From Thermoanaerobaculia bacterium (GTDB lineage: Bacteria; Acidobacteriota; Thermoanaerobaculia; Gp7-AA8): a stretch of 64,000 bases of DNA. Below, one piece after another: positions 25,404-62,521 of the stretch. A program made the translations under genes and the position numbers. Numbering within the stretch: position 1 is the first letter of the stretch; each line of letters starts with the position of its first letter. Where the stretch lies: assembly GCA_036522835.1 (NCBI GenBank), contig DATDFB010000034.1, forward strand, positions 4,383-68,382, written 5' to 3'. The notes under the pieces were generated by a model. It had not been told where the DNA came from and searched no databases. It was given only the letters and a program-made list of their open reading frames with translations.

Positions 25404-25424
25404 TTGTACAATGCCGCGTCCTTC

Positions 25425-28664: not shown

Positions 28665-31046
28665 TTACTGTTTCGGGCCGATGGTCGGACCGTCGCCGAC
28701 GACAAAGTACCCCGCCGGCACACCGCTCGCCTGACACTGCGCCGCGGCGGCTGCCGCGGCGGCATTCACGGCGTTGACGTCCGCCGCGCTGTTGCTCTTC
28801 GGCACGACGACGGGAACGCAGCGGCGGGTCGTGTTCAGCGATGGATCCGTGGCCGTCACGACGATGAGATAGACGCGGCCGTCGCCGGTGGCGTTGCGCT
28901 CGGCGCGGAGGCGCAGCGACCCGGCGGCGTCGGGCGACTGATCGCCGTTGGCCGGCGTGACGTCGTCCTCCTTGCTGAAGACGCCCGCGAAGGCAACGCT
29001 CGCGGAGCCGCTGTTGTCCGTTGCGCTGAAGGTCAGGCCGACGTCGACGAGGTCGTGATTCGGCGGCCAGAGCAGGCCGGTCGTCACCGAGGCCGAAAGC
29101 GCCGGCGGCTCGGTGTCGCGCACCGTGATCGTCACCGTCGCCGCAGCGGAGTCGACCGTGCCGTCGTTCGCCTGGTACGTGAACGTGTCGGTGCCGGTGA
29201 AGTGCAGATTCGGCGTGTAGGTGAAGCCGCCGTTCGCGCTGCCCGACACCGTCCCGTGCGACGCCGGCGTGTAGTGCACGGCCGTCAGCGCGTCACCATC
29301 GACATCCGTGTCGTTCGCCAGCACTCCCGGCGCCGTGACCGTCAGCGTCGTGTCCTGATCCATTGCGTACGCGTCGGCGTTCGCCACCGGCGGATCGTTC
29401 ACATTCGTCACCGTGACATGCACCGTGGCCGAGGCCGTGCCGCCGTTTCCGTCGCCGATCGTGTAGGTGAAAGTGTCGCTGCCGAAGAAATTCGCGTTGG
29501 GCGTGTAGCTGACCGATGACGCCGTGAACGTGACCGAGCCGTGCGCTCCCTGAGTGACCGCCGTGACGGTGAGCGTGTCGCCGTCGACGTCGCTGTCGTT
29601 CGCCAGCACGTTCACCGCATTCGCGCCACTGTCCTCAGCGATGGTCGTCGAGTCGTCGACCGCACTCGGCGGATCTTCGACGTTCAGCACCGTTATGCTG
29701 ACCGTGGCCGTGTCGGTGCCGCTGTGGCCGTCGTCGATCGTGTAGGTAAAGGAGTCGGTGCCTTGGAAGTTCGGATTCGGCGTGTAGCTGACGGACGACG
29801 CGCTGAACGTCACCGATCCGTGCGCGCCCTGCGTCACGGCCGTGATCGTGAGCGTGTCGCCGTTCGCGTCCGTGTCATTTGCAAGGACGTTGATCGCGTT
29901 CGCGCCGCTGTCCTCCGTCACTGTCGCCATGTCGTCGACCGCGTCGGGCGGCGAGTTGCTGCATGCCACCTGCCCCTCGAACGCGCCGACGTCCGCACCG
30001 TCGCCGCCCGTCGCATTCGCGATCGTGGCGTCGTCGCACGGCCGGGTCATGCCGCGCTGGTCGGTCGTCTCGCCGCTGCTGTTGCCTTGGTCAATGGCGA
30101 TGCTTCCGGCGAGGAGCGCGTGCGTCGGCGTCGTGCCGCCGTTGTTCTGCAGCGGCCCGAGTGCGACAGAGGCGTCGCTGACGCCGAGCTGGTCGGCCGT
30201 CGCGGCGGCCATCGAGCCGGTGCCGAGCGCGCCGACGACGTTGTAGCCGTTGCTGGTGATCGTGCCGTCGACGTTCGGCGCCGACGTGCCGCTGTTGCCG
30301 GCCACGATGCTGTTGCGCAGCGTGATCGTGCCGCCGGCGTTCTTCACCGCGCCGCCGCTGTTCGCGGTGATGGTGCTGTTCTTGACGTTGACGGTGCTGC
30401 TGCCGTCGGCGAGCACGGCGCCGGCGGACGTCGTGGCGGTGTTGCCGCTGATCGTCGAGTTGACGATGTTCACGATCGCGCCGTTCGTCGCGTAGATCGC
30501 CGCGCCGCTCACCGCGTGCGAGCCGGAGATCGTGCAGTTGATGAGGTTCAGCGTGGCGTGGTTGACGAGGATGGCGCCGCCGCTGCCCGACACCGAGCCG
30601 TGGACGATGTTGAGGTTCTGCAATGTGACGACGACGCCCGCAGCGCCGGCGGGGTTGATGTGGAAGATGCGGTCGAGCGACGCGGCGTCGATGGTCATGC
30701 CGGTGTCGGGGCCGACGATGGTCAGCGACTGGGTGATGTCCATGTCGCCGGTGAGCACGCCGTCCTCGCCGGCGCCCGGGAGCTCGAAGGTGATGGTGTT
30801 GAAGTAGGTGAGGAAGCTGATGGAGTCGGCGCCGCTGCCGGCGGCGCACTGCGGATATGGTGCACTGTCGGCGTTGGCGTTGCCGATGGCTTTGCGCAGC
30901 GTGCAGTGGTTGACGTCGGGGCGTTCGGGCGGCCCGAGGAGCGTGTCCTGCGGACCTTCGACTTGGAGATCGGTGGCGAAGAGTGCGGGAGCGATGACCA
31001 GGAACAGGGCAATGGCAAGACCCGATAGAGAGCGGTTCGGGCGCAT
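28665..31046 (-). CDS. large secreted right-handed beta-helix protein with tandem ~95-aa Ig/cadherin-like (VCBS-type) repeats; adhesin-like
   Basis: Signal peptide; Asn/Ser/Thr/Gly-rich beta-helix repeats (..NSTISGNTATTSAGAV..NSTITANSGG..). Then three or more near-identical repeats (DDxATVTEDSGANAxNVLANDTDxxGDTLTxTAVTQGAHGSVTF..SYTPNxNFxGTDxFTYTIxDG). Confidence 0.75.
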   Translation of the reverse strand: MRPNRSLSGLAIALFLVIAPALFATDLQVEGPQDTLLGPPERPDVNHCTLRKAIGNANADSAPYPQCAAGSGADSISFLTYFNTITFELPGAGEDGVLTGDMDITQSLTIVGPDTGMTIDAASLDRIFHINPAGAAGVVVTLQNLNIVHGSVSGSGGAILVNHATLNLINCTISGSHAVSGAAIYATNGAIVNIVNSTISGNTATTSAGAVLADGSSTVNVKNSTITANSGGAVKNAGGTITLRNSIVAGNSGTSAPNVDGTITSNGYNVVGALGTGSMAAATADQLGVSDASVALGPLQNNGGTTPTHALLAGSIAIDQGNSSGETTDQRGMTRPCDDATIANATGGDGADVGAFEGQVACSNSPPDAVDDMATVTEDSGANAINVLANDTDANGDTLTITAVTQGAHGSVTFSASSVSYTPNPNFQGTDSFTYTIDDGHSGTDTATVSITVLNVEDPPSAVDDSTTIAEDSGANAVNVLANDSDVDGDTLTVTAVTQGAHGSVTFTASSVSYTPNANFFGSDTFTYTIGDGNGGTASATVHVTVTNVNDPPVANADAYAMDQDTTLTVTAPGVLANDTDVDGDALTAVHYTPASHGTVSGSANGGFTYTPNLHFTGTDTFTYQANDGTVDSAAATVTITVRDTEPPALSASVTTGLLWPPNHDLVDVGLTFSATDNSGSASVAFAGVFSKEDDVTPANGDQSPDAAGSLRLRAERNATGDGRVYLIVVTATDPSLNTTRRCVPVVVPKSNSAADVNAVNAAAAAAAAQCQASGVPAGYFVVGDGPTIGPKQ

Positions 31047-37504: not shown

Positions 37505-40500
37505 TTGCTTGGGACCCAACGTGATCCAGATCACGAAATCGACCGCAGAAGCCGTTACCATGCGGTCACAGGTCCCTGCGTGCCCATTCACACGCTATCC
37601 GCCGGGTTAGCGCGCGATGCTCTTGCACTCGCGACGCTCTTCACCGCCGTGGCCATTTTTCTCCTCGGCGGTGCCGTCATTGCGCGCGGCCGCGCCTCGC
37701 TCCTCTCCAGCCTTTTTTTTCTCATGACTTTCGGCGCGAGCGGGTGGCTGGCCTTCGACGCCGCCACGTTCGTCGCGGGCGACGCCGCCCTCGCTGTAGC
37801 CTTCGCCCGCGCCGCTCTCGCCTCGGCCTGCGTCGTCCCGGCGGCGGTCTTTCACTTCGCCGCCGTCTACACGAAGCGCTCGAGGCGGCTGGCCGGCGTC
37901 GTGGCCGCCTGCTGGATCTTCTGCGCGGCCGTCGCCGTGGCCGCGCTCTTCACGCCGCTGATCATTCCCGGCGTCCACCAATACTCGTGGGGCTTTTACG
38001 GTCGCACGTCCGTCGCCGACCTCGTCTGGATCGCGCTCTTCGTGGCCATGCTCGTCGCCAGCATCCGCCTCATCGCGCGCCTCGCGAAGGAAGACGATCC
38101 GCTGACGCGCGCCGGCGCGCGGGCCATCGTCGTGGCCTGCATCGCCGGCCTCTTCGCCGGGGTCAACCTCCTGCCGGCGTTCGGCGTCGGCATCGTGCCG
38201 CTCGGTTTTCTGGCGCTGCTCGCTTTCGTCGGCCTCTCGGCGAACGCCATCTGGCGCTATGGTCTCGTGCAGCTCACGCCGCAGTTCGCCGCGGAGCAGG
38301 TGCTGGCGACGATGAAGGGCGCCGTCCTCGTCGTCGACCTCGAGGCGAAGATCCGCGTGGCCAACGACGCCGCCTGCTCGATGCTCGGCTACAAGGAAAA
38401 CGATCTCGTCGGGCAACCGCTGAAGAAGATCTTCGACGAGGCCGACAAGATCAGCACCGGAAAGCTGCTGCACAGCATGGGCATCCTGGAGCGGAGCATG
38501 GGATGGCGCGCCGCGGACGGGACGCGCATCGAGGTGGCGGCGACGTCGTCGTTCATCCGCGACCGCGAGGGGACGCCGGTGGGCGTCGTCTACGTGGCCA
38601 CCGATGTCACCGAGCGCCGCCGCGCCGAGCAGGCCATGCGCGAGAGCGAGCACCGCTACCGCACGCTCTTCGACGGCAATCCGCTGCCGATGTGGATCTA
38701 CGACTTCGAGACGCTGCAATTCCTGGCCGTCAACGAGGCGGCCACGCGCACGTACGGCTACTCGAAGAGCGAGTTCCTGCGTATGGGCATCATGGACATT
38801 CGTCCGGCCGAGGATCTGCCGCGGATGCATGCGCGGCTCGCGGAGCTGCGCGAGCGGACGGCGCCGATGCTGTTCCGGCACCGCAAGAAAGACGGGACGA
38901 TTTTCTGGGTCGAGGTCACGTCGTACGAGTTCGTGACCGGCGGACGTCGCGCGCGGCTGGTGATCTCGGTCGACGTCACCGAGCGCCAGCGCGCCGAGCA
39001 GCTCGTGCGCGAGAGCGAGGAGCGCTACCGGAGTCTCGTCGAGCTGTCGCCCGACGCGATCATGCTCCACGCCGACCGCCGCTTCATTTTTCTCAACCAG
39101 GCCGCCGTCGAGCTCCTCGGCGCGAACAGCGCGGACGATCTGATCGGCACGTCGATCATCGACCGCGTCCATCCCGACTCGCGCAACGTCGTGGCCAACC
39201 GCCTGCGCACGCTCGACGAAGGGCACGACGTGCCGATGGTGGAGGAGAAGTTCCTCCGCCTCGACGGCAGCGTGGTGGAGGTCGAGGTGGCGGCGATCTC
39301 CTTCGTCTTCAACGGCCGCCCGGCCGTGCAGGTCGTGGCGCGCGATATCTCGCAGCGCAAGCAGATCGAAGAGCGCTATCGACTGCTCTTCGAGCGCAAC
39401 CTGGCCGGCGTGTTCCGCACCAGCATCGACGGGCGCATCCTCGACTGCAACGACGCCCTGGCGCGCATCTTCGGCTACCGCAACAAGGAAGAGCTGCTGG
39501 CGCGGTCGGCGCCCGACGTGTACTTCGATCTGCAGGACCGCGAGAACGTGCTGAACGAGCTGCGCGAGCACGGGTCGCTGACGAACGTCGAGACGCGCAT
39601 GCGCCGCGCCGACGGCCGCGAGCTGTGGGTGCTGGAGAACGTGACGCTGAGCGAGTCGCGCGGCGAGATGGAAGGGACGATCATCGACATCACCGAGCGC
39701 AAGACGGCGCAGGAACAGATCGAGTATCAGGCCTTCCACGACGTGCTCACCGGGCTGCCGAACCGGCGGCTCTTCCGCGACCGCATCGGCGTGGCCCTGG
39801 CGCACGCGCGGCGGCAGCGCAGCGGCATCGCCGTGATGTTCCTCGACCTCGATCAGTTCAAGCTGGTGAACGACACGCTCGGGCACACGGTGGGCGACGC
39901 GCTGCTGCAGGCCATCGCCGGCCGCCTGGTCGGCTGCGTGCGCGCCGAGGACACGGTGGCGCGCATGGGCGGCGACGAGTTCACCATTCTCGTGTCGAAC
40001 ACGACCGACCGCCGCGCCGCCGGCATCGTCGCCCAGAAGGTGCTGGAGACGGTGGCGCATCCGGCGGTCGTGGACGGACACGAGCTCTTCGTCACGACCT
40101 CGCTCGGCATCTCGATGTTCCCCGACGACGGCACCGACGCGGAGACGCTGCTCAAGAACGCCGACCGGGCCATGTACCGCGCCAAGGAAGCGGGGCGCAA
40201 CAATTTCCAGTACTCGACGACCGACGCGTTCGACACGGCCGTGGGGCGGCTGTCGATCGAGGCCAGCCTGCACCACGCGCTCGAGCGCGAGGAGCTGGTG
40301 GTGCATTACCAGCCGATCATCGACCTCGCTTCGCACGACATCGTCGGCGCCGAGGCGCTGGTGCGCTGGAAGCATCCCGACAACGGGCTGATGGGGCCGG
40401 ACGACTTCATCCACATCGCCGAGGAGTGCGGGCTGATCGTGCCGATGGGGGAGTGGATCCTGCGCACGGCCTGCGGGCAGATGAGGGAGTGGCACGACGC

Positions 40501-41029
40501 CGGGCACGAGGGGCTGCGCATCGCCGTGAACCTCTCGCCGCGGCAGTTCCAGCAGCGCGAGCTGCCGGCCATGATCGAGCGCGTGCTGCGCGACACCGGC
40601 CTGGCGGCGGAGCTGCTCGACATCGAGATCACCGAGTCGGCGGCGATGCAGAACGCCGAGCAGTCGCTGGCGATCATGCGCAAGTTGAAGGAGATGGGGG
40701 TGCGGATCTCGATCGACGACTTCGGTACCGGCTATTCGTCGCTGTCGTACCTGAAGCGGTTTCCCATCGACACGGTGAAGATCGATCAGAACTTCGTGCG
40801 CGACCTCGCCCAGTCGGCGAACGACGCCGCCATCGTGACGGCGGTGATCTCCATGGCCCGCGCCCTGAAGCTCGGCGTGATCGCCGAGGGGGTGGAGACC
40901 GAGGAGCAGCTCGCGTTCCTCAGGCGCGAGCAGTGCGAGACCATCCAGGGGTTCCTCTATAGCCGGCCCGTGCCGGCGGACGAGTTCGGGGCGGCGCTGC
41001 GCAGCGCCGGCGTCGCGCCGGCGTCGTAA
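37505..41029 (+). CDS. membrane sensor PAS(x4)-GGDEF-EAL diguanylate cyclase/phosphodiesterase
   Basis: N-terminal polytopic domain; repeated PAS modules with RRRAEQ linkers; ..RMGGDEFTIL.. (GGDEF); ..EALVRW..DDFGTGYSSL.. (EAL). Start codon uncertain. Confidence 0.85.
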   Translation: MLGTQRDPDHEIDRRSRYHAVTGPCVPIHTLSAGLARDALALATLFTAVAIFLLGGAVIARGRASLLSSLFFLMTFGASGWLAFDAATFVAGDAALAVAFARAALASACVVPAAVFHFAAVYTKRSRRLAGVVAACWIFCAAVAVAALFTPLIIPGVHQYSWGFYGRTSVADLVWIALFVAMLVASIRLIARLAKEDDPLTRAGARAIVVACIAGLFAGVNLLPAFGVGIVPLGFLALLAFVGLSANAIWRYGLVQLTPQFAAEQVLATMKGAVLVVDLEAKIRVANDAACSMLGYKENDLVGQPLKKIFDEADKISTGKLLHSMGILERSMGWRAADGTRIEVAATSSFIRDREGTPVGVVYVATDVTERRRAEQAMRESEHRYRTLFDGNPLPMWIYDFETLQFLAVNEAATRTYGYSKSEFLRMGIMDIRPAEDLPRMHARLAELRERTAPMLFRHRKKDGTIFWVEVTSYEFVTGGRRARLVISVDVTERQRAEQLVRESEERYRSLVELSPDAIMLHADRRFIFLNQAAVELLGANSADDLIGTSIIDRVHPDSRNVVANRLRTLDEGHDVPMVEEKFLRLDGSVVEVEVAAISFVFNGRPAVQVVARDISQRKQIEERYRLLFERNLAGVFRTSIDGRILDCNDALARIFGYRNKEELLARSAPDVYFDLQDRENVLNELREHGSLTNVETRMRRADGRELWVLENVTLSESRGEMEGTIIDITERKTAQEQIEYQAFHDVLTGLPNRRLFRDRIGVALAHARRQRSGIAVMFLDLDQFKLVNDTLGHTVGDALLQAIAGRLVGCVRAEDTVARMGGDEFTILVSNTTDRRAAGIVAQKVLETVAHPAVVDGHELFVTTSLGISMFPDDGTDAETLLKNADRAMYRAKEAGRNNFQYSTTDAFDTAVGRLSIEASLHHALEREELVVHYQPIIDLASHDIVGAEALVRWKHPDNGLMGPDDFIHIAEECGLIVPMGEWILRTACGQMREWHDAGHEGLRIAVNLSPRQFQQRELPAMIERVLRDTGLAAELLDIEITESAAMQNAEQSLAIMRKLKEMGVRISIDDFGTGYSSLSYLKRFPIDTVKIDQNFVRDLAQSANDAAIVTAVISMARALKLGVIAEGVETEEQLAFLRREQCETIQGFLYSRPVPADEFGAALRSAGVAPAS

Positions 41030-41402: not shown

Positions 41403-41434
41403 CGCCGTCCGGTGCCGGCGGAAGATCTCTCGTG

Positions 41435-41463
41435 TGGAGTGCGGCGGCCGCGCCGCCGCTGTC
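41435..41463. repeat. family-A palindromic element, one-arm copy
   Basis: TGGAGTGCGGCGGCCGCGCCGCCGCT. Confidence 0.7.
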
Positions 41464-44653: not shown

Positions 44654-45712
44654 ATGAGCATTCGCAAGCGCGGACGCGGGGCGCGGGCGAAGAGCGCGCG
44701 CGGCGAGGAGTGGGAGGAGCTGCACGATGACGCGGCGCGCGCGCGCAGACGGGCTCGGCCGTCGGACCAGATCGACGCGCTGCGGCATCTCTTCGACGAT
44801 CCCGGCCTGGCCGGCGTCGACCCCGCCGGCGCGGCGATCGTGATCAACGTTGCCAGCGGACGGTGCCGCGTCTTCCGCGACACGAGGGAGATCGACGCCG
44901 TCGTGCCGCCGGAGATCGCCGCGCGGCAGAAGAGCGCGCTCGCCGTCGGCGACCGCGTGCTCCTCGACGAAGAGCTGCGTCTGGCCGCGATTCTGCCGCG
45001 GCACAGCGTGCTCTCGCGCCCCGACCCGCTGAACCCGCACGTGCAGCGATTGATCGCGGCGAATATCGACGTCGTGGCCAACGTGGTGTCGATGAAGGCG
45101 CCGCCGCTGCGGCCGCGGCTCATCGACCGGTTCCTGATCGCCATCCAGCGCGGCGGCGCGGCGCCGATGATCGTGGTGAACAAGATCGATCTCGACCGCG
45201 ACCTGACTCTGTTGCGCGACTACGAAGACCTCGGCATTCCGGTGATTCCGTGCTCGACGAAGAGCGGCGAAGGCCTCGACGAGCTGCGTGCGGCGCTCGC
45301 CGGGAAGACGTCGGCGCTCGTCGGCCACAGCGGCGTCGGCAAATCGTCGATCCTGAATGCGCTCGACGAGCGCCTGCAGATCGCCACGGGCGATCTCCAC
45401 CGCCGCGGCACCGGCCGCCACACCACGACCTCCTCCACGCTTCACGACCTCGGCGGCGGCACGTTCCTCATCGACACCCCCGGCATCCGCGAGCTCGGCC
45501 TCTGGGAGCTGACGCCGCGTGCGCTGCGGGAGTCGTTCCCCGAGTTCGACGAGGCGGCGGAGCTCTGCCGCTTCAACGACTGCACGCATCTGCACGAGCC
45601 GGCCTGCGAGGTGAAGGAGCGCGTGGAGCGCGGAGAGCTCAGCCGGGCACGGTACGAGACGTACGTGCGGTTGGCGGAGGAGGTGACGGGGCGGGTGACG
45701 GGTGACAGGTAA
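44654..45712 (+). CDS. rsgA: ribosome small-subunit-dependent GTPase A
   Basis: Circularly permuted GTPase motifs: ..VVNKIDL.. then ..LVGHSGVGKSS...DTPG..; C-terminal zinc-finger Cys/His (CRFNDCTHLHEPAC). Confidence 0.9.
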   Translation: MSIRKRGRGARAKSARGEEWEELHDDAARARRRARPSDQIDALRHLFDDPGLAGVDPAGAAIVINVASGRCRVFRDTREIDAVVPPEIAARQKSALAVGDRVLLDEELRLAAILPRHSVLSRPDPLNPHVQRLIAANIDVVANVVSMKAPPLRPRLIDRFLIAIQRGGAAPMIVVNKIDLDRDLTLLRDYEDLGIPVIPCSTKSGEGLDELRAALAGKTSALVGHSGVGKSSILNALDERLQIATGDLHRRGTGRHTTTSSTLHDLGGGTFLIDTPGIRELGLWELTPRALRESFPEFDEAAELCRFNDCTHLHEPACEVKERVERGELSRARYETYVRLAEEVTGRVTGDR

Positions 45713-45767
45713 CAGGTGACAGGTGATTACCCGTGACCTGTGACCCGTCACCTGTGACCCGTCACCT
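45682..45767. repeat. hairpin built from tandem heptamers (unit GGTGACA / GGTGACG), copy H3; overlaps the last 9 codons of rsgA
   Basis: GGTGACG GGTGACA GGTAACA GGTGACA GGTGA-TTAC-CCGTGAC CTGTGAC CCGTCAC CTGTGAC CCGTCACC. Encodes the ..VTGRVTGDR tail of RsgA. Confidence 0.85.
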
Positions 45768-46980
45768 CACGGAAGCAGCCGCGTCGCGCTCGTGCTCTCC
45801 ACGTAAATCAACGCATCCCATCCCGCGACGAGATCGCCGTTGATCGTGAACGTCGGCCGCGCGGCGAAGTTCGCGTTCGTCGCGGCGATCCGCCACTGCT
45901 GTTTGCCGTTGAGCCAGCGCGGGGCGTTGCGAAGCGGAACGATCATCAGCGGCATCGCGCCGCGGGCGAGCGTTTGCGTGACGTCGGTGGCGGGCGGCGG
46001 GACGATGTCGACGGCGGCGACGCCGGTGGGGAGGAGGATGCTGACGCGGCCGCTGTAGGTCGCGGAGGCGAACGCGACGTAGCCGGCGCCGAGCTCCTTG
46101 GCGAGAAGCTCGCCGGCGGAGACGATCACGGGGCCGTTGAAGTCGTAGTCGATGCGGCCGAAGTGGACCATGTGGCCGATGACGACCGTCTTCGCCCGCG
46201 CGGCGTTCCAGAGGATGTTCTCCGCGAGGTGAGCGTCGCGGCTCAGGCGCGCCGTCTCGAAATCTTCTTCCGCCTGCTCGGCGCGGCGCACGGCGTGCAG
46301 CGCGTGTTCGTCAGGGTGGGCTTCGACGTCCGCGCGCACAGCGAGCACATTCTCGCGGCACTGCGCGTGGTACTCGGGGGGATAGGCGTAATACGAGTTG
46401 TTCGTCCAGTAGCTGTCGAGGCAGTCGTAGCGCGCGGCGGCGCGGTCGGCGGCGGCGGGATCGACGCCGCGGAGGTAGTCGACGACGGCGGCGGTTGCGC
46501 CGTTCGGGACGGTCGAGTCGATGGAGGCGATGCTCACGGCCGGATTGCCGGCGGCGTTCCAGGCCCGGATCCACTGCACGAGCTCGAGCGCTTCCTCGAC
46601 GTGCCAGAAGAAGTACGCCTCGACCTGCAGCGCGGCGGCGGGATCGCCTTCGCCGGTCTTCACGTATTTGTCGAGCGCTTCGAGGTCGTACGGACCTTCG
46701 AGCGCGACCGTGCGGAAGCCGGCGTGCTCGATGAGGTACTTGGCCAGGCGGTTGTGCAGCGTGAAGAACTCGTGCGTGCCGTGCGTGGCGTCGCCGAGCG
46801 CGACGACGCGAGCGTCGGCGACGAGAGGGAGGACAGGCGCGAGATCGCTGTCGTCCGGCGTCGGCTCGGTCGTGCGCAGGGCGATGGCGTGCTGCGGCAG
46901 CCACGTCTGCGGCGGCGGGTCGCCCGGCGGCACCATGGCGCGGTGCCGGATGGCGGCGGCGAGGAGGATTCCGAGGAGCA
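45767..46980 (-). CDS. erythromycin-esterase-family (EreA-like) protein
   Basis: ..VVALGDATHGTHEFF..RLAKYLIEHAGFRTVALE.. characteristic of the erythromycin esterase family. Start MLLGILLAAA chosen just downstream of the repeat-derived N-terminal extension. Confidence 0.7.
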
Positions 46981-46981: not shown

Positions 46982-47038
46982 GTGGAGTGCGCCGGCCATG
47001 CCGGCGCTGTGAGAGCGGCGGCATGGCCGCCGCACTCC
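46982..47038. repeat. family-A 57-bp palindromic element, copy 2
   Basis: TGGAGTGCGCCGGCCATGCCGGCGCTGTGAGAGCGGCGGCATGGCCGCCGCACTCCA. Confidence 0.9.
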
Positions 47039-49274: not shown

Positions 49275-50677
49275 TGCTTGGCGATCGCCGGCGCGTACTC
49301 GCCGAGGAACTTGCGGTTCCACCAGGCGCCGGTGCGCGCGCGCTCGGCGGGGGTGGTGAACCAGTATTGCCACTTCACCGCGCGCACCATCGCCGGCGGG
49401 CGCGCCGCGAAAGGATTGCCGGCGAAGAGGCGCAGCACCTGCGGCGAGCTCTCCAGCAGTTGCGCTTCGCAGTTGAGGACGAACGGGTTCTCGTAATAGT
49501 CGCCGAGAGAGGCGAACCAGAGGTTCCAGTCGAAGCGCGGCTGGTACGGCGCGTAGATGCCCGGCGCCTTCATCGGGTCCTGCGGCTTGAAGCGGAACGG
49601 ATAGGCGATCCAATGCTCGCCGTCGTAGGAGCCCTGGAGCTCGATCTCGTAGCGGGCGCGGGTCATGACGGCGAAGAGGCCGAAGCGGTTTGTGATGCGG
49701 AAGGGCTCGAGGAGCGGGACGAGCGGGAAGGAGGGGACGAGGAAGCCGGCGATGGTGGTGACGAAGAGGATGGCGAAGAAGACTTTTTGAATGACGAAGG
49801 GCGCACGCCGTGCGCCCCTACCGGTGGGAGCGTCGTCGGTAGGGGCGCACGGCGTGCGCCCCCCGTCCAACAAGAGCACGCCGAGGAACAACACGAGATA
49901 GTTCAGAAACGCATAGTTCGCCGTGAGAATGATGGCGATCTGCAGCGGCGTCGTCAGAACGAACGCGATGAGCCGCGACTGCTTCGGCAAAAACACCAGC
50001 CACGCGATCAAGAGCTCGGCGACGAGCGTGTACGCCACGGTGGCGGCGTGGAAGCCATGCGGCAGACGCTGCTGCGTGTACCAGCCGATCCACGTCGGCA
50101 GCGGGCCGTTCTCGTAGTACTTGTCCATGGCCGTGAAGTCGCGCCACTGCGTCTCGCCGCTCAGGATCTTCACCACGCCCGACTCGAAGTAGATGCGGAA
50201 CCACAGCCAGCGGAGCATGAAGAGCGCGCCGGCGTTGACCGGCTGCGCGCCGGCGAGTCCCGGCCGCAGGCCGCGCGGCGCGAGGAAGATCGACAAGAGG
50301 GCCGCCTCGAGGAGCATGCCGTCGGACTGGTAGCCGCTGAAGTCCTGCGCCGCGGCGACGAAGGAGAGGAACGCCACTGCCGCGACGGCGATCGACACGC
50401 GCGGCCAGAGGTTGGCGATGATCGCAACGGAGGCCAGAAGTCCGATCCAGACGATGGCCATGAGCATCGCGTCGTCGGTGTTGATCCACAGCAGCGTCGG
50501 CACGAACCAGAAGCGCTTCAGACCGAGCACGCGCAGTTGTTGCAGGTACGTCTGCGCCGGCAGCAGGCCGCGCGAGCCGATCAATCCTTCGATCTGGAAG
50601 TGGAGCGAGACGAACGCGGAAAGGAAAATCGCGCCGAGCGCGCGGAGCCAGATCCAACGCGCGCGGGCGCCGGTCAT
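49271..50677 (-). CDS. lipase maturation factor (LMF1-like) family membrane protein
   Basis: Polytopic; ..FVPTLLWINTDDAMLMAIVWIGLLAS..; C-terminal ..YENPFVLNCEAQLL.. Contains an in-frame 63-bp palindrome at 49799-49861. Confidence 0.7.
   Translation of the reverse strand: MTGARARWIWLRALGAIFLSAFVSLHFQIEGLIGSRGLLPAQTYLQQLRVLGLKRFWFVPTLLWINTDDAMLMAIVWIGLLASVAIIANLWPRVSIAVAAVAFLSFVAAAQDFSGYQSDGMLLEAALLSIFLAPRGLRPGLAGAQPVNAGALFMLRWLWFRIYFESGVVKILSGETQWRDFTAMDKYYENGPLPTWIGWYTQQRLPHGFHAATVAYTLVAELLIAWLVFLPKQSRLIAFVLTTPLQIAIILTANYAFLNYLVLFLGVLLLDGGRTPCAPTDDAPTGRGARRAPFVIQKVFFAILFVTTIAGFLVPSFPLVPLLEPFRITNRFGLFAVMTRARYEIELQGSYDGEHWIAYPFRFKPQDPMKAPGIYAPYQPRFDWNLWFASLGDYYENPFVLNCEAQLLESSPQVLRLFAGNPFAARPPAMVRAVKWQYWFTTPAERARTGAWWNRKFLGEYAPAIAKQ
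49799..49861. repeat. 63-bp palindrome inside the LMF CDS
   Basis: GCGCACGCCGTGCGCCCCTACCG ... CGGTAGGGGCGCACGGCGTGCGC. Encodes GGRTPCAPTDDAPTGRGARRAP in-frame. Confidence 0.8.
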
Positions 50678-52359
50678 CGCCGCTCCACGATGATGATGCC
50701 GCGATGCGCGTAGATGCGGCGGAAGAGGCGCAGCGGCGCGCCGTCATACGCGCGTTTCCACACGGTCGAGCGCGGCACCAGCTCCGGATCGAGGCCGAGG
50801 ATCGTCGCGGCGGAGAGCATGCCGCGCGGCCCCTCGTAGATGACGAAGCGGACGCCTTGCTCGTCGCAATAGCGCGCCAGCGACTCCTCGTGCGTGGTGA
50901 GGAAGGCGTCGTGCGCACGCTCGAAGGCGATGCGGTCGGGCATGGTGCCGAAGTTGTCGATGACGACGGGGCGCCCCGCCACGACGTCGAGCAGATGCCC
51001 GACCGACCACGGCGCGAGTACGCGTCCCGGCGGCTGCGTCTGCAGAAATCGTGCGGCCTCGAACCACGGCCGGAATGCCAGCGACGGCGGCCGCACGGGG
51101 TGCAGCATCCAGAGGGCGAATTGCACGGGCGGGGCGATGGCCACGGCGGCCAGCGCGAGCTGCCGCAGCCAGCGGCGCTCGAACGATACGGCGGCGATCG
51201 CGCCGGCGATGGCCAGAAGCGGCACGCCGACGCTCCAGAATCGCCGCGAAGTGATGGCGAGCAATAGATAGAGGATGGCGAACGGCGCGACGACGCGGTC
51301 CCGCCGCACGAGCGACCAGACGAGCACGGCGCCGATGCCGAGCCCCACCACGATCGAGAGGATGTCCTCGGTCGACCCGCGCCAGAGCGGCTGAAATTCC
51401 TGGATCGTACGCAGCCACGGCTCGCCGCCGAAGAAGGTCGAGCCTTCGAGGAGAGCTCCCGGCGCGGAGGGCGTGGCGAGGACGACACACGCGCCGGCGA
51501 GGAGGGCGAAAAAAGATCCCTCGCCCCGCTTGCGGGGAGAGGGTGGCGCCGAAGGCGCCGGGTGAGGGGCGATGCCTGCAGGATGGCGCCCCTCATCCGG
51601 CGCTGCGCGCCACCTGTACGCGCACGCCACCGCCGCCGCCCCGAAGAGCGCGGCGTGCGTCCAGCCGAGGAACCAGGCGTTGTCGGGGTAGCCGGGCGGG
51701 CGGGTGACGCGGTAGAGCGCGATGGCAACGGCGCCGATGCCGAAGGCGATCGCGCCGGCCCGGCCGTCGGTGCTGAAGAAGAGGATGACGAACACGAGTG
51801 CGGCGGCGACGAGGAGGGCGGTCTGCACGAACATGGCGGCGGTCAATGCCAGCGCGATCTGGAGTGCGGCGGCCATGCCGCCGCTGTCAGAGCCGCGGCA
51901 TGCCCGCCGCACTCCACAAATCATCCCCACCACGAAAATCGGCTCCGTCCAATGGTGGTCGATGCTGCCGATCCACGACTGCGTCACCACGAACGGCGAC
52001 GCCGCCAGCGCCGCGCCCGCCGCGATCGCCACCGCGCGTCCGAAGCGCCGGTCCATCCACAGCACGACCGCCGCGACGAAGAGCGCCGAGCCGATCGGCG
52101 GGATCCACTTCACGCGCGCCAGCACCTCGGCCTGCGTCGTCGCGCCGGTCAGATGGGCGATGCCGCCAAGGAGGCGGTCGTAGAGCGGAGGCCAGGGGCA
52201 GAAGGCGTTGCGGTCGGCGTCGAAGTCGACGAAGTGCGTCATCCGCTTGAGGTGATACAGCTCGTCGACCGGCGAGAGCTCCCACCACGCGGCGTTGCTC
52301 ACCCGGAAAGCCAGCGCGGTGGCGAACGCGACGATGACCAGAAACATCCTCACGCGCAC
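50674..52359 (-). CDS. polytopic membrane glycosyltransferase-like protein (PMT/ArnT/STT3-like fold, assignment tentative)
   Basis: 561 aa with 10 or more hydrophobic helices. The ORF is continuous across two in-frame repeat elements (family D at 51515-51615; family A at 51860-51916). ATGA overlap with the LMF gene. Confidence 0.5.
   Translation of the reverse strand: MRVRMFLVIVAFATALAFRVSNAAWWELSPVDELYHLKRMTHFVDFDADRNAFCPWPPLYDRLLGGIAHLTGATTQAEVLARVKWIPPIGSALFVAAVVLWMDRRFGRAVAIAAGAALAASPFVVTQSWIGSIDHHWTEPIFVVGMICGVRRACRGSDSGGMAAALQIALALTAAMFVQTALLVAAALVFVILFFSTDGRAGAIAFGIGAVAIALYRVTRPPGYPDNAWFLGWTHAALFGAAAVACAYRWRAAPDEGRHPAGIAPHPAPSAPPSPRKRGEGSFFALLAGACVVLATPSAPGALLEGSTFFGGEPWLRTIQEFQPLWRGSTEDILSIVVGLGIGAVLVWSLVRRDRVVAPFAILYLLLAITSRRFWSVGVPLLAIAGAIAAVSFERRWLRQLALAAVAIAPPVQFALWMLHPVRPPSLAFRPWFEAARFLQTQPPGRVLAPWSVGHLLDVVAGRPVVIDNFGTMPDRIAFERAHDAFLTTHEESLARYCDEQGVRFVIYEGPRGMLSAATILGLDPELVPRSTVWKRAYDGAPLRLFRRIYAHRGIIIVERR
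51515..51615. repeat. ~100-bp structured repeat element, copy 2 (same family as 8073-8190), in-frame inside the membrane GT-like gene
   Basis: CTCGCCCCGCTTGCGGGGAGAGGGTGGCGCCGAAGGCGCCGGGTGAGGGGCGATGCCTGCAGGATGGCGCCCCTCATCCGGCGCT. Read on the minus strand it encodes ..HPAPSAPPSPRKRGEGSFF... Confidence 0.8.
51860..51916. repeat. family-A 57-bp palindromic element, copy 3, in-frame inside the membrane GT-like gene
   Basis: TGGAGTGCGGCGGCCATGCCGCCGCTGTCAGAGCCGCGGCATGCCCGCCGCACTCCA. Encodes ..RRACRGSDSGGMAAALQ.. on the minus strand. Confidence 0.85.
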
Positions 52360-53735: not shown

Positions 53736-53737
53736 GA

Positions 53738-53814
53738 GGTTCTTAGGTTCTTGAGTTGTTAGGTTCTTACGTTTCGCGAAACTCAAGAACTAAGAACCTA
53801 AGAACCTAACAACC
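53738..53814. repeat. hairpin built from tandem heptamers (unit GGTTCTTA / TAAGAACC), copy H4
   Basis: GGTTCTTA GGTTCTTGA GTTGTTA GGTTCTTAC-GTTTCGCGAAAC-TCAAGAAC TAAGAACC TAAGAACC TAACAACC. Same unit as H1, AT-rich. Confidence 0.85.
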
Positions 53815-55731: not shown

Positions 55732-55733
55732 TC

Positions 55734-55759
55734 TGGAGTGCGGCGGCCATGCCGCCGCT
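55734..55759. repeat. family-A palindromic element, one-arm copy
   Basis: TGGAGTGCGGCGGCCATGCCGCCGCT, starting 3 nt after the parE stop. Confidence 0.75.
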
Positions 55760-55761
55760 CT

Positions 55762-57549
55762 ATGCTCCTCGCAATCGTCGCCGCGCTTTATATCAACGAC
55801 GCCTCCTGCACTTCCTGCCACGCGAACATCGTCCACACCTACCACGCGGTGGGGATGTCGAAGTCGTTCTACCGCCCGCGGCAGGACGACGCCATCGAGG
55901 ACTTCTCGAAGCTGCCCTTCAAGCACGCGAAGTCGGGCGACGTGATGGAGCTGCGCTGGCGCAACGGGCGGCTGATCTTCCGCCGCGTGAACGGCCGGAG
56001 CGTGTTCGAGCAGCCGGTCGACTGGATTCTCGGCTCGGGCCACCACGCGCGCACATACCTCTACCAGACGCCGAACGGCGAGCTCTATCAGCTCCCGCTC
56101 GCGTGGTACACGCAGACAAAGGAATGGGGGATGGCCCCCGGCTACGACCGGCGCGACCACGACGGCGTGCTGCGCCGCGCGCGGCACGAGTGCCTCTTTT
56201 GCCACAACGCGTATCCGGGTGACGGGTTTCAGGTGACGGGTGACAAGGTTTCTCACCCGTCACCTGTCACCCGTGACCTGTCACCTGGGAACGCGTATCC
56301 GGACGGGTCCCAGGCCACGGGTGACAAGGCTTCTCACCCGTCACCTGTCACCCGTTCCCTGTCACCCGGCTACTGGAGCAATCAAGGCCTGCCGGCGCAG
56401 CTCCCCGAGGGGATCGGCTGCCAGCGCTGCCACGGGCCGGGATCAGAACACGTGGCGCTCGCCTCGGCCGGCGCCGGCAACGCGCAACTGCGCGCGGCAA
56501 TCGTGAATCCGGCGCACCTCGACGCGCAGCGCCGCAACGACGTCTGCTACGAGTGCCACATGCAGCCGTCCGTGGCCATCCCCGGCCTGCGCCGCTTCGG
56601 GCGCGACATTTACTCGTATCGGCCAGGGCAGCCGCTGCACGACTACCTCGCGCGCGTCGACATCGTCGACGGCGAGATCCCGCGGCCGGAGCGCTTCGAG
56701 ATCAACCATCATCCGTATCGGCTCGAGCAGAGCCGCTGCTTCCGCGAGAGCGGAACGCTGTCGTGTCTCACGTGCCACGACCCGCATCGCAAGACGTCGA
56801 ATGTCTCGCCGGTCTGCCTGCAGTGCCACGCCGAGGCGCATCGCGCGAGCGAGAACTGTGCAACCTGTCACATGCCGAAACGCCGCACGCAGGACGTCGT
56901 TCACGTCGTGATGACGGACCATCGCATCGGCGTCTATCGCGACCTTCCGAAGCTCCTCTCGCCGCGCGAAGAGCGAGACCCGGTCATCGACGACATCGAG
57001 GTCGACGATCCGCTCTACCGCGCCGTCGCCGGCGTGCGCGCCGGCTCGACGTCTGCTGCGCGGCAGCTCGAGACGTTGCTGGCGGACACGCCGTCAAAGG
57101 AGGTCGAGCCGTATCTCGATCTCGCCGCCGCGCAGTTGCGGCAGAAACGCTACGACGCCGTCGAGGCGACGGCGCGCCTCATTCTCGCCCGGGCGCCCGA
57201 CCACCCGCTGGCGCTAGAGTGGCTCGGCCTCGCGCGCGCGAACCTCGGCGCGCGCGACGAAGGGATCGAGCTGCTGCGCAAGGCCGCGGCGCTCGATCCG
57301 CAGCGCGTCGAGACGCTCTACAACCTCGGACTGCAGCTCGCCGCGCGCGGCAGCCGCGACGAGGCCATCGCAGTGTTCGCGCGTGCCGTGGCCGGCCGTC
57401 CGAACTTCGTCCTGGCCTGGTTCCACCTCGGCAATGCCCGCGCCGCCAAGGGCGATCGCGACGGCGCCGTCGCCGCCTGGCGGCGCGCGCTCGACATCGA
57501 TCCGCGTTTCGCCCGCGCCGCCGCCGCTCTCAGTAATCCGCCACCGTGA
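55762..57549 (+). CDS. multiheme c-type cytochrome (7 CxxCH) with C-terminal TPR repeats
   Basis: CTSCH, CLFCH, CQRCH, CYECH, CLTCH, CLQCH, CATCH. TPR-like C-terminal third. Contains an in-frame duplicated heptamer-hairpin element at 56218-56368. Confidence 0.75.
   Translation: MLLAIVAALYINDASCTSCHANIVHTYHAVGMSKSFYRPRQDDAIEDFSKLPFKHAKSGDVMELRWRNGRLIFRRVNGRSVFEQPVDWILGSGHHARTYLYQTPNGELYQLPLAWYTQTKEWGMAPGYDRRDHDGVLRRARHECLFCHNAYPGDGFQVTGDKVSHPSPVTRDLSPGNAYPDGSQATGDKASHPSPVTRSLSPGYWSNQGLPAQLPEGIGCQRCHGPGSEHVALASAGAGNAQLRAAIVNPAHLDAQRRNDVCYECHMQPSVAIPGLRRFGRDIYSYRPGQPLHDYLARVDIVDGEIPRPERFEINHHPYRLEQSRCFRESGTLSCLTCHDPHRKTSNVSPVCLQCHAEAHRASENCATCHMPKRRTQDVVHVVMTDHRIGVYRDLPKLLSPREERDPVIDDIEVDDPLYRAVAGVRAGSTSAARQLETLLADTPSKEVEPYLDLAAAQLRQKRYDAVEATARLILARAPDHPLALEWLGLARANLGARDEGIELLRKAAALDPQRVETLYNLGLQLAARGSRDEAIAVFARAVAGRPNFVLAWFHLGNARAAKGDRDGAVAAWRRALDIDPRFARAAAALSNPPP
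56218..56368. repeat. two tandem copies of a GGTGACN-heptamer hairpin element (H5), inserted in-frame in the cytochrome c gene, each preceded by AACGCGTATCCGG
   Basis: 13-bp direct repeat AACGCGTATCCGG at 56207-56219 and 56290-56302. The element encodes ..GDGFQVTGDKVSHPSPVTRDLSPG NAYPDGSQATGDKASHPSPVTRSLSPG... Confidence 0.8.
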
Positions 57550-62464: not shown

Positions 62465-62521
62465 TGGAGTGCGGCGGCCATGCCGCCGCTGTGAGAGCGG
62501 CGGCATGGCCGCCGCACTCCA
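62465..62521. repeat. family-A 57-bp palindromic element, copy 4
   Basis: TGGAGTGCGGCGGCCATGCCGCCGCTGTGAGAGCGGCGGCATGGCCGCCGCACTCCA, between parC and lspA. Confidence 0.9.

What the first reader, a model, noticed from the sequence alone, without database searches (positions are those of the whole stretch)
56207..56368. Tandem in-frame duplication of a heptamer-hairpin element inside a multiheme cytochrome c gene, each copy preceded by a 13-bp repeat
AACGCGTATCCGG occurs at 56207-56219 and 56290-56302, each followed by a GGTGACN-heptamer hairpin element. The CDS stays open and translates the two elements as ..GDGFQVTGDKVSHPSPVTRDLSPG / NAYPDGSQATGDKASHPSPVTRSLSPG.. between the CLFCH and CQRCH heme motifs. 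This looks like a recent insertion plus duplication event (or two independent insertions at a duplicated target) that the protein tolerates as a loop.
Basis: seen in the sequence. Interest (0 to 1): 0.5.

Follow-up and report, generated by a model that had tools for sequence, protein, structure and literature searches.

The report
Heptamer-repeat palindrome duplicated inside cytochrome gene
A small hairpin-forming DNA repeat that normally sits between genes has landed in frame in a flexible loop of a soil bacterium's multi-haem cytochrome and been duplicated with a few host codons, a clear but not unprecedented case of selfish repeat DNA becoming part of a protein.

Summary
Window 56206-56370 is a two-unit, in-frame tandem repeat of 84 + 81 nt. 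It lies between haem motifs CLFCH and CQRCH of a 595-aa multihaem cytochrome c/TPR protein from a Thermoanaerobaculia (Acidobacteriota) MAG.

Each unit has three parts:
- the host codons N-A-Y-P (the 13-mer);
- a hairpin of about 70 nt, built from about four GGTGACR heptamers, a short loop and about five YGTCACC heptamers;
- the host Gly codon.

About 100 of 111 homologues have only 7-12 residues here. Two close orthologues carry one copy, and the closest allele carries none. The insert's GC3 is 0.64 against 0.885 for the rest of the gene.

The single-copy alleles match copy 1 in their left half and copy 2 in their right half. The two states are therefore related by tandem duplication or collapse, not by two separate insertions. 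The event is not recent: the copies differ by about 12%. An independently assembled strain that is 99.87% identical has the same structure, so this is not an assembly artefact.

Other lineages carry different palindromes in the same loop. In every coding copy, the one in-frame TGA that a perfect array would create is mutated.

The closest known things are inverted heptamer-SSR arrays (Xanthomonas, Nostoc) and in-frame Rickettsia palindromic elements. I rate it a new member of known kinds, of moderate interest.

The parts
55762..57549 (+). CDS of the host protein: 595-aa multihaem cytochrome c (7 CXXCH motifs) with a C-terminal TPR domain. The mechanical ORF starts at GTG 55738, but orthologues and the deposited protein start at ATG 55762.
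   Evidence: ORF list; Pfam TPR and multihaem families; P0001 is 100% identical, 595 aa, Thermoanaerobaculia MAG; CXXCH positions; start-region comparison.
56191..56205 (+). Haem-binding motif CLFCH (haem 2), immediately upstream of the repeat.
   Evidence: C, F, C and H are invariant in alignment A1.
56206..56289 (+). Repeat unit 1 (84 nt, 28 codons): NAYP + GDGFQVTGDKVSHPSPVTRDLSP + G.
56206..56218 (+). 13-mer AACGCGTATCCGG, copy 1. These are the original host codons N-A-Y-P-(G). HNAYP follows the haem motif in nearly all homologues.
56218..56245 (+). Copy 1 left arm: GGTGACG GGTTTCA GGTGACG GGTGACA. It is a perfect 4-unit array except for codon TTT (56227-56229), which replaces the in-frame TGA.
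   Evidence: (the ideal array translates GDG*QVTGD).
56246..56252 (+). Copy 1 apex/loop, AGGTTTC.
   Evidence: Fold.
56253..56287 (+). Copy 1 right arm: TCACCCG TCACCTG TCACCCG TGACCTG TCACCTG. The C-rich strand is open in all three frames.
56290..56370 (+). Repeat unit 2 (81 nt, 27 codons): NAYP + DGSQATGDKASHPSPVTRSLSP + G. The final GGC is the host Gly codon before the conserved YW.
56290..56302 (+). 13-mer copy 2: duplicated host codons NAYP, no longer next to a haem motif.
56303..56326 (+). Copy 2 left arm, degraded: ACGGGTCCCAGGCCACGGGTGACA. It has a 3-nt deletion, and codon TCC (56308-56310) stands where the ideal array would have TGA.
56334..56368 (+). Copy 2 right arm: TCACCCG TCACCTG TCACCCG TTCCCTG TCACCCG. 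It shares the GTTCCC variant with the single copy of orthologues L001 and L004.
56419..56433 (+). Haem-binding motif CQRCH (haem 3), downstream of the repeat.
   Evidence: invariant in A1.
45683..45768 (.). Intergenic member of the same GGTGACR heptamer-hairpin type, between convergent genes. It contains the GTGACC variant seen in copy 1, and a variant unit supplies the TAA stop of gene 44654..45712.
   Evidence: -29.9 kcal/mol, z = -5.7.

Best explanation
A palindromic heptamer-repeat element sits in frame in the hypervariable linker between haem 2 and haem 3 of a multihaem cytochrome/TPR protein. It consists of a direct array of GGTGACR units, a short apex, and the inverse array YGTCACC. It is the same type of element that fills intergenic spaces in this genome and in other Acidobacteriota.

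The element replaced most of a linker that was originally 7-11 residues long, leaving the host codons ..H-N-A-Y-P on its left and G-Y-W.. on its right. Only versions without an in-frame stop could survive. The G-rich arm of a perfect array has TGA in every frame once per 21 nt, and in every coding copy exactly that codon is mutated.

Later, a 28-codon unit (NAYP + element + G) was tandemly duplicated. The likely cause is replication slippage or template switching stimulated by the hairpin. The copies have since diverged by about 12%, and copy 2 has lost much of its stem.

The encoded peptide is rich in Pro, Ser, Thr and Gly and is tolerated as a disordered surface loop. No function is required to explain it. 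The mechanism is repeat DNA spreading into any permissive site, followed by purifying selection on reading frame and stop codons only.

Shown here: the repeat structure, the hairpins, absence from most orthologues, the one-copy and zero-copy alleles, the chimeric relation between the single copy and the two copies, the low GC3, the removal of stop codons, and independent assembly.

Inferred: how the element arrived (transposition, ectopic copying or local growth), how it was duplicated, whether duplication came before or after the lineage split, and the absence of function.
For: 1. Insertion. 99 of 111 scorable homologues have 7-12 residues between C.FCH.A and YW..Q. The window has 53, P0002 and P0003 have 26, and P0004, P0005 and P0006 have 7-9. 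DNA alignment gives the empty, one-copy and two-copy sites. Metagenome relatives: 29 of 34 have 10-11 residues.

2. Foreign composition. GC3 is 0.64 in the insert against 0.885 in the other 540 codons, p = 5.6e-6.

3. Same element type elsewhere. There is a GGTGACR hairpin at 45683-45768, and other heptamer or octamer hairpins at 18601-18695, 25327-25404 and 53737-53814, all intergenic. L129 has an intergenic hairpin with the same GGGAAC/GTTCCC variant units. GGTGACR hairpins occur in Pyrinomonadaceae genomes.

4. Stop avoidance. The ideal array reads GDG*QVTGD. The actual codons at that position are TTT, TCC, TCA, TTA and GGA, and TCG at the equivalent position in L127.

5. Duplication or collapse. 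L004 differs from copy 1 and copy 2 at 3 and 9 positions in the left half, and at 7 and 3 positions in the right half. L001 gives 7 and 9, then 5 and 2. The unit includes host codons on both sides.

6. Not an artefact. L132, an ENA soil assembly, is 99.87% identical over 18.2 kb (23 mismatches) and has the identical 300 nt around the repeat. L133 is 100% identical.

7. Permissive loop. Other lineages carry other palindromes at the same place. These are GGATSAC heptamer hairpins in L126 and L127 (-27.6 and -30.4 kcal/mol), (GGGGACR)x4 arrays in L005, L128 and L129, and a GC-rich hairpin in L130 and L137. AF2 gives coil with pLDDT 26-31 over the insert.
Against: The arrival mechanism is unknown. 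I found no target-site duplication, no terminal repeats distinct from the arrays, and no transposase.

A metagenome scan for the element with its specific apex found nothing. That collection also missed the known copies, so the null result says little.

The window allele is closest overall to the empty allele P0004 (33 against 18 and 21 informative sites), and its downstream flank is identical to P0004's. A single ancient insertion therefore needs an unresolved or star-like tree, recombination, or a secondary loss.

The 39-nt core of the element is invariant at 14 of 14 synonymous third positions across the three lineages, against 0.68 gene-wide. That gives about p = 0.004 by my own arithmetic. 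It hints at nucleotide-level constraint, homogenisation, or spread more recent than the gene tree, which a purely neutral passenger model does not predict.

Copy 1 is closer to an ideal array than copy 2 or the orthologues' copies are (3 differences against 5-6). This is unexpected for a plain old duplicate.

The AF2 evidence for a loop is weak, because most of the haem region is low-confidence.
Confidence: 0.72

Rival explanations
1. Local origin rather than insertion. A short heptamer array grew in situ by polymerase slippage, for example from the ancestral ...CGC GAC GGC codons. The inverse arm was then made by intrastrand template switching, turning a direct array into a palindrome. The (GGGGACR)x4 alleles would be the intermediate stage.
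For: The 10-codon array in L005, L128 and L129 is positionally homologous, codon by codon, to the left arm of the hairpin alleles: G-D-G-x-Q-x-T-G-D-R, with the same R pattern and the same junction after TATCCG. The hairpin alleles differ from it by exactly 13 extra codons, which are the apex and the right arm. In L001 the variant GGGAAC on the left is matched by GTTCCC on the right, giving a 25-bp stem whose only mismatch is the stop fix. The ancestral linker ends in GAC GGC. Slippage is the published explanation for heptamer SSRs (Mrazek 2007, as summarised in PMC4679880).
Against: The same heptamer units and variants (GGTGAC, GGGAAC, GTGACC) occur at unrelated intergenic loci, including in other Acidobacteriota classes. 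At the parE|cytochrome spacer, the filled and empty sites share no seed sequence. Array-bearing alleles are scattered on the tree between alleles with the ancestral linker. The GC3 of the segment is foreign.
Confidence: 0.15
2. Two independent insertions. A second element inserted next to the first and generated a 13-bp target-site duplication, AACGCGTATCCGG.
For: Copy 1 is bounded by identical 13-mers. It is closest to an ideal array (3 differences) and has the lowest GC3, 0.57. It also carries the GTGACC variant found in the intergenic element at 45.7 kb.
Against: Neither copy is wholly orthologous to the single copy of L001 and L004, which equals copy 1's left half plus copy 2's right half. 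The repeated unit continues past the 13-mer into the element. It also includes the host Gly codon on the right, making 28 codons. No 13-bp duplications flank the other elements.
Confidence: 0.06
3. The insert is kept because it is useful. It could be an extended flexible loop that changes partner binding or haem spacing. Or it could be an mRNA hairpin that slows translation between haem-attachment sites.
For: The 39-nt core is invariant at synonymous sites in three lineages and both copies. The RNA structure is very stable, -105 kcal/mol with z = -8. The loop has acquired inserts repeatedly in the family.
Against: The closest allele and most homologues do without it. The inserts in other lineages are unrelated in sequence. 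Copy 2's stem is decaying. The outer arms and the peptide vary freely (F/S/S/L, V/A/G/M).
Confidence: 0.05
4. It is an assembly artefact, meaning repeat-induced misassembly of a single-copy element, or the segment is an ancestral linker.
For: Short-read assemblers can mis-resolve tandem repeats. The source is a MAG.
Against: The copies differ at 9 positions plus an indel, so they are resolvable. The identical structure is present in a separately assembled strain that differs at 23 positions over 18 kb. The ancestral 10-11-residue linker is seen in about 100 homologues.
Confidence: 0.02

Closest known systems
Heptameric long simple-sequence repeats in convergent (inverted) pairs: GGGAATC / GGGGAYT repeats of Xanthomonas and Nostoc (Rehm et al. 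2015, PMC4692102); cyanobacterial STRR heptamers; heptanucleotide LSSRs of Mrazek 2007
   Same: Both are tandem 7-nt units in arrays of about four, dispersed over the genome, lying mostly within a few bases of stop codons and rarely in CDSs. Xanthomonas has 70-75 cases in which two arrays face each other on opposite strands and can form a stem-loop. The window's intergenic elements fit this description. The (GGGGACR)x4 linker alleles even match the published preference for four G-tract units.
   Different: The units differ (GGTGACR, GTTCTTA(G), GAGTCCT) and the phylum differs (Acidobacteriota). Here the element is inside a CDS, in frame, with both arms translated. Rehm et al. report these repeats as under-represented in coding regions and excluded those in coding regions from their transcript analysis. 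No G-quadruplex is expected for GGTGACR.
Rickettsia palindromic elements (RPE; Ogata et al. 2000, as reviewed in PMC10969869)
   Same: Both are palindromic repeat DNA inserted in frame into unrelated protein-coding genes. The insert is translated as an extra peptide at a position compatible with the fold, without destroying the host protein. This is the closest functional analogue.
   Different: RPEs are about 100-150 bp with family-specific consensus sequences, are not built from tandem heptamers, and are confined to Rickettsia. There is no sequence relationship, and no tandem duplication with host codons has been described for them, to my knowledge.
REP/BIME elements mobilised by RAYT transposases, and MITEs
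   Same: They are short, dispersed, hairpin-forming, mostly extragenic repeats, polymorphic between close relatives. The same genome also has a classical REP-like family, GGAGTGCGGCGGCCATGCCGCCGC, with 11 half-sites in the window.
   Different: Across loci only the repeat unit is conserved, not the apex or any other part of the element. There is no GTAG-type head, no terminal inverted repeats distinct from the array, no target-site duplication, and no associated transposase seen.

Membership tests
Heptameric LSSR / inverted heptamer-array elements (Mrazek 2007; Rehm 2015; STRR) | Tandem head-to-tail iteration of a 7-nt unit (at least 3-4 units) | tested here: met
   TRF finds period 7 or 14 arrays at 56216-56244, 56253-56287 and 56334-56368. 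Copy 1's left arm is a perfect 4-unit array apart from the stop fix.
Heptameric LSSR / inverted heptamer-array elements (Mrazek 2007; Rehm 2015; STRR) | Same unit at several dispersed loci, and in related genomes | tested here: met
   There is a second GGTGACR element at 45683-45768, one at L129 1412-1488, and at least 120 loci in the GTDB genomes, including Pyrinomonadaceae hairpins. Copy number per genome was not measured.
Heptameric LSSR / inverted heptamer-array elements (Mrazek 2007; Rehm 2015; STRR) | Two arrays in convergent orientation able to form a stem-loop | tested here: met
   DNA folds range from -19.9 to -31.3 kcal/mol with z from -3.5 to -8.2.
Heptameric LSSR / inverted heptamer-array elements (Mrazek 2007; Rehm 2015; STRR) | Location in non-coding DNA near gene ends | tested here: not met
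   This copy is inside a CDS and is translated in silico. The other four heptamer or octamer hairpins in the window are intergenic. This copy is therefore an atypically placed member.
Rickettsia palindromic elements (RPE) | Palindromic repeat inserted in frame in a CDS that is otherwise conserved | tested here: met
Rickettsia palindromic elements (RPE) | Sequence similarity to one of the RPE family consensus sequences; Rickettsiales host | tested here: not met
   The host is Thermoanaerobaculia and the element is a heptamer array. There are no Rfam matches in the whole window. No direct alignment to RPE consensus sequences was run.
REP/BIME (RAYT-mobilised) | Conserved 20-40-nt imperfect palindrome with a conserved head tetranucleotide, identical across many copies | tested here: not met
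   Loops and array lengths differ at every locus. Only the unit is shared.
REP/BIME (RAYT-mobilised) | Cognate RAYT (IS200/IS605-like Y1 transposase) in the genome | not tested
   Only 64 kb of the genome is available, and the window's ORFs were not scanned for PF01797.
MITE | Terminal inverted repeats plus a target-site duplication of fixed length | tested here: not met
   No flanking duplication is seen at the filled versus empty sites of the linker or of the parE|cytochrome spacer. The 13-mer belongs to a 28-codon tandem duplication.
In-frame tandem duplication | Two adjacent copies of one unit, with length a multiple of 3, and a single-copy state in relatives equal to the outer halves | tested here: met
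   The units are 84 and 81 nt. L004 and L001 match copy 1 on the left and copy 2 on the right.

The most novel reading that the evidence does not exclude
The loop after haem 2 may be more than a permissive site. It could be a specifically targeted hot-spot. Heptamer-repeat palindromes of different unit sequence (GGTGACR, GGATSAC, GGGGACR) all join the gene at the same junction, directly after TAT CCG / TAT GCG, in separate lineages. The element's core is more conserved than synonymous sites of the host gene. That would imply an active, sequence- or structure-directed copying mechanism for heptamer-array palindromes in Acidobacteriota, for example hairpin- or G4-primed template switching between arrays. 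Such a mechanism would repeatedly remodel a protein loop, and would be an SSR-based counterpart of the Rickettsia RPE phenomenon with a definable target.
Probability: 0.12. Interest if true: 0.6.

Novelty: new member of a known kind. Interest (0 to 1): 0.36.

Why it matters
How heptamer simple-sequence repeats arise and spread is still unexplained, and they are usually treated as strictly non-coding. This locus gives a natural series within one gene family:
- empty site;
- direct array;
- one hairpin;
- two hairpins;
- unrelated palindromes at the same site.

The series shows that such repeats can enter a coding region, which filter acts on them (only the in-frame TGA is removed), and that they then promote local duplication that includes host codons. 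This is a route by which repeat DNA lengthens protein loops.

[quoted passage not shown] In practical terms, it warns annotators of such MAGs that low-GC3, Pro/Ser/Thr-rich segments inside conserved genes may be repeat insertions. It does not reveal a new kind of system.

Tried and rejected
- Metagenome scan for the element with its own apex (GGTGACANGGNTTCTCACCCGTCACC): 0 hits. The collection also failed to return the known JGI copies, so I discarded it as uninformative rather than as evidence against mobility.
- Protein search with the 51-aa insert peptide, to find other proteins carrying the translated element: the word index returned no candidates, not even the source protein. This is a tool limitation, not a result.
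- Testing whether GGTGACR arrays at 120 genome loci lie in CDSs by looking for spanning open frames. Rejected as unreliable, because the C-rich strand is open in all frames.
- My first tandem-array/hairpin detector missed known elements. I replaced it with a seed-based one.
- First folds of L126 and L127 used wrong coordinates (last two entries). I redid them with explicit sequences.
- Rfam gathering-threshold scan of the whole window: no hits.
- Allele phylogeny to time the insertion: the four closest alleles form a near-star. I could not decide between one insertion with sorting, loss or recombination, and several insertions.
- No fold search on the AF2 model, because it is too low in confidence over the haem region.
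Full report
**Observation**

The region lies in a + strand ORF (55738..57549 mechanically). The real start is ATG 55762, giving 595 aa, identical to the deposited protein P0001 from a Thermoanaerobaculia MAG. The protein has seven CXXCH motifs and a C-terminal TPR domain.

AACGCGTATCCGG occurs only at 56206-56218 and 56290-56302 in the window. Chance expectation is 0.16 even with one mismatch allowed. Each 13-mer is followed by a 68-nt segment. The two segments are 88% identical with a 3-nt indel, so the units are 84 and 81 nt. TRF gives period 81, 2.0 copies and score 250.

Each segment has three parts:
- a direct array of about four GGTGACR heptamers;
- a 7-9-nt apex;
- an inverse array of five YGTCACC heptamers.

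Copy 1 folds as DNA at -26.5 kcal/mol (z = -6.3) with a perfect 14-bp inner stem. Copy 2 folds at -19.9 kcal/mol (z = -3.5). As mRNA, the 181-nt region folds at -105 kcal/mol (z = -8.0). The frame stays open and reads NAYPGDGFQVTGDKVSHPSPVTRDLSPG / NAYPDGSQATGDKASHPSPVTRSLSPG, between CLFCH (56191-56205) and CQRCH (56419-56433).

**It is an insertion**

Among the 120 best homologues, 111 could be scored for the stretch between C.FCH.A and YW..Q. The family-wide state is 10-11 residues, for example YPALAENTRDG or YPEVAEQSLS. It is 7-9 residues in the closest clade: P0004 has YPAASGN, P0005 YPATSAPAS and P0006 YPALSQPTG. Only 12 proteins are longer than 12 residues. Thirty-four further metagenomic relatives give the same picture, with 29 at 10-11 residues.

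P0002 and P0003 are 84-85% identical to the window protein by BLASTP and carry exactly one copy of the element. P0004, the closest allele overall, carries none.

The DNA alignment shows three states:
- empty site: AACGCGTATCCCG-CGGCGTCCGGCAAT-TACTGG;
- one-copy site: AACGCCTATCCGG + about 70-nt hairpin + TTACTGG;
- two-copy site: the window.

The insert's third-position GC is 0.64, against 0.885 for the other 540 codons (p = 5.6e-6). This is what unameliorated foreign or repeat DNA would look like.

**What the element is**

The window holds other hairpins built the same way from tandem 7- or 8-mers:

| Position | Unit | Location |
|---|---|---|
| 45683-45768 | GGTGACR (same unit) | between convergent genes |
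| 18601-18695 | GTTCTTA(G) | directly after a stop codon |
| 53737-53814 | AGGTTCTT | directly after a stop codon |
| 25327-25404 | GAGTCCT | between divergent genes |

All four fold with z between -5.5 and -8.2.

A relative (L129) has a GGGAACA/GGTGACA hairpin between parE and the cytochrome gene. It carries the same GGGAAC/GTTCCC variant units that occur in the coding copies.

A capped scan of GTDB genomes for three tandem GGTGACR units returned 120 loci from many phyla. Hairpin-form elements were found chiefly in Pyrinomonadaceae, another class of Acidobacteriota. Plain direct arrays were found in Thermoanaerobaculia, Gemmatimonadota, Verrucomicrobiota and Nostocales. Apex sequences and array lengths differ from locus to locus; only the unit is shared. 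Rfam has nothing in the whole window.

The literature describes this class. Heptanucleotide repeats are the commonest long SSRs in many bacteria (Mrazek 2007, as summarised in PMC4679880). In Xanthomonas, GGGAATC repeats have these properties (PMC4692102):
- they occur preferentially as four units;
- they lie within 50 bp of stop codons;
- they are under-represented in CDSs;
- in 70-75 cases per genome they occur as two convergent arrays able to form a stem-loop.

The intergenic elements here are members of that kind, with new units and in a new phylum. The copy in the cytochrome gene is an atypically placed member.

**Signature of selection on the coding copies**

A perfect (GGTGACR)n array contains TGA, and because 7 is not a multiple of 3, it puts TGA in every frame once per 21 nt. 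The inverse strand is open in all three frames. In the frame used here, the ideal left arm would read G-D-G-stop-Q-V-T-G-D. The actual codon at that position is:
- TTT in copy 1;
- TCC in copy 2;
- TCA in L001;
- TTA in L004;
- GGA in the array-only alleles.

Copy 1's left arm is otherwise a perfect four-unit array. The unrelated GGATGAC hairpin in L127 has TCG exactly where TGA would fall in frame, and L126 uses the TGA-free variant GGATCAC. The only consistent deviation from the ideal repeat is therefore removal of the stop codon.

**Duplication, not two insertions**

The repeated unit is 28 codons. It runs from the host Asn after the haem motif (the HNAYP residues: H, A and Y invariant and N nearly invariant in A1; P common), through the element, to the host Gly that precedes the conserved YW. 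Host sequence is therefore duplicated on both sides.

Differences of the single-copy alleles from each window copy:

| Allele | Left half vs copy 1 | Left half vs copy 2 | Right half vs copy 1 | Right half vs copy 2 |
|---|---|---|---|---|
| L004 | 3 | 9 | 7 | 3 |
| L001 | 7 | 9 | 5 | 2 |

The single copy equals copy 1's left half plus copy 2's right half. That is the expected relation for a tandem duplication of one unit, or for the reverse event, a recombinational collapse of two units. It is not expected if either copy were a separate new insertion bounded by a 13-bp target duplication.

The copies differ at 9 of 68 aligned positions plus one codon. This is comparable to the 6-9 differences between orthologous element parts in different lineages, and to the roughly 12% nucleotide divergence of the genes. 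So the duplication is not recent, and it may predate the split from the one-copy lineages. I could not settle the direction. I found no convincing microhomology at the unit boundaries. Hairpin-stimulated slippage or template switching is an inference from general knowledge of palindrome instability.

**Not an artefact**

The two-copy allele is present in three records:
- L133 (JGI 3300039426) is 100% identical to the window over 14.5 kb;
- L132 (ENA ERZ923669, run ERR1051325) differs at 23 positions over 18.2 kb, yet has the identical 300 nt around the repeat;
- the third record was listed but not fetched.

Read-level support could not be checked.

**A permissive or hot loop**

The same linker carries other inserts in other lineages:
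- GGATSAC heptamer hairpins in P0025 and P0028, joined to the gene after the same TAT CCG / TAT GCG and folding at -27.6 and -30.4 kcal/mol;
- four-unit GGGGACR direct arrays in P0010, P0011, P0015 and P0018, which are positionally homologous, codon by codon, to the left arm of the hairpin alleles;
- a GC-rich hairpin in P0008 and P0009.

P0016 carries an in-frame copy of yet another palindrome at a second site of the gene. The 8-nt spacer between parE and the cytochrome gene is filled by four different palindromes in four lineages and is empty in two. These genomes are evidently under constant bombardment by palindromic repeats, which persist wherever they are tolerated.

AF2 (31-sequence alignment, mean pLDDT 63) models residues 154-216 as coil with pLDDT 26-31. 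This is consistent with a disordered loop, but the whole haem region is poorly modelled, so it is weak evidence.

**Unresolved points**

- The four closest alleles form a near-star. Informative sites give 33 for window + empty allele, against 18 and 21 for the other two groupings, and 14 of the 33 cluster at the C-terminus. The window's downstream flank is identical to the empty allele's. One insertion followed by sorting, recombination or loss cannot be told apart from repeated acquisition.
- The 39-nt core ACGGGTGACArGGyTTCTCACCCGTCACCTGTCACCCGT is almost invariant in all four copies. 14 of 14 synonymous third positions are unchanged across three lineages, where the gene-wide fraction is 0.68. 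By my arithmetic this gives p of about 0.004. The cause could be nucleotide-level constraint, homogenisation, or spread more recent than the gene tree.
- The element may have arrived pre-formed, or it may have grown from a direct array by template switching. The array alleles and the complementary GGGAAC/GTTCCC variants in L001 favour the second route. The dispersed occurrence of the same units and variants favours the first.

**Comparison and verdict**

In how it works, this is closest to the Rickettsia palindromic elements: palindromic repeats inserted in frame into conserved genes and translated as extra loop peptide (PMC10969869). It is not a member of that family, because host, size, architecture and sequence all differ.

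In what it is made of, it belongs with the heptameric SSRs in convergent arrangement described for Xanthomonas and Nostoc. It differs in unit, phylum and coding location. It fails the defining features of REP/BIME (no conserved element sequence) and of MITEs (no terminal repeats or target duplication).

I classify it as a new member of known kinds. It is a clean, well-documented example, with an informative allele series and a neat stop-codon filter, but it is not a new type of system. Interest is moderate (0.36).

Noticed in passing
window 55735-55758; also 62466-62520, 46984-47038, 51861-51915, 28425-28479, 7082-7105, 41436-41459: A classical REP-like family, GGAGTGCGGCGGCCATGCCGCCGC, has 11 half-sites in the window (0 expected). 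Four are full 57-nt palindromes and three are solo halves. One solo half sits between the parE stop and the true start of the cytochrome gene. It creates the spurious 8-codon N-terminal extension of the mechanical ORF (GTG 55738).
   Followed up: partly
parE|cytochrome spacer: window 55732-55761; L129 1412-1488; L005 ~520-572; L130 1337-1465; L002 and L131 empty: The same short intergenic spacer holds a different palindrome in each lineage: a GGGAACA/GGTGACA heptamer hairpin, CCCTCTCCCCGC..GCGGGGAGAAGGG, a 129-nt AT-rich heptamer hairpin, or a REP-like half. It is only 8-9 nt long in two lineages. No flanking duplication is visible.
   Followed up: partly
L131 (P0016), between QCHPEAHG and ENC; window 49799-49862: Another orthologue has a 20-residue in-frame insert at a second site of the cytochrome. 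It is made of a palindrome (..GCCCCTACCGGTAGGGGCGGTAGGGGCGCACAGCGTGCGCCC) related to the intergenic palindrome at window 49799-49862.
   Followed up: partly
L126 (P0025), L127 (P0028), L005/L128/L129 (P0010/P0018/P0015), L130/L137 (P0008/P0009): The same haem 2-haem 3 linker carries three other kinds of insert: GGATSAC heptamer hairpins, four-unit GGGGACR arrays with G-quadruplex-like spacing, and a GC-rich hairpin. All begin directly after TAT CCG / TAT GCG.
   Followed up: partly
window 45683-45768: The intergenic GGTGACR hairpin fills the whole space between two convergent genes. A variant unit (GGTAACA) supplies the TAA stop (45710-45712) of gene 44654..45712, so the last codons of that protein are repeat-derived.
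   Followed up: partly
window 18601-18695, 53737-53814, 25327-25404: Heptamer or octamer hairpins with other units (GTTCTTA(G), AGGTTCTT, GAGTCCT). The first two begin at or one base after the stop codon of the upstream gene. The third lies between divergent genes.
   Followed up: partly
window 41074-41403: A 43-nt unit repeated 7.7 times at 94% identity, in an intergenic region after gene 37505..41029. There are no spacers, so it is not a CRISPR array.
   Followed up: no
window 4333-4584: 21/42-nt tandem arrays followed by their inverse arrays, between convergent genes. This is a larger-unit version of the same 'direct array + inverse array' architecture.
   Followed up: no
window 29422-29942: A 279-nt unit repeated 1.9 times at 79% identity, inside the large minus-strand ORF 28665..31046. 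It is probably a repeated protein domain.
   Followed up: no
window 8072-8097; L132 19221-19283; L005 ~531-557: The palindrome CCCTCTCCCCGCnnGCGGGGAGAGGG recurs in the window and in relatives. It is a further dispersed hairpin family.
   Followed up: no
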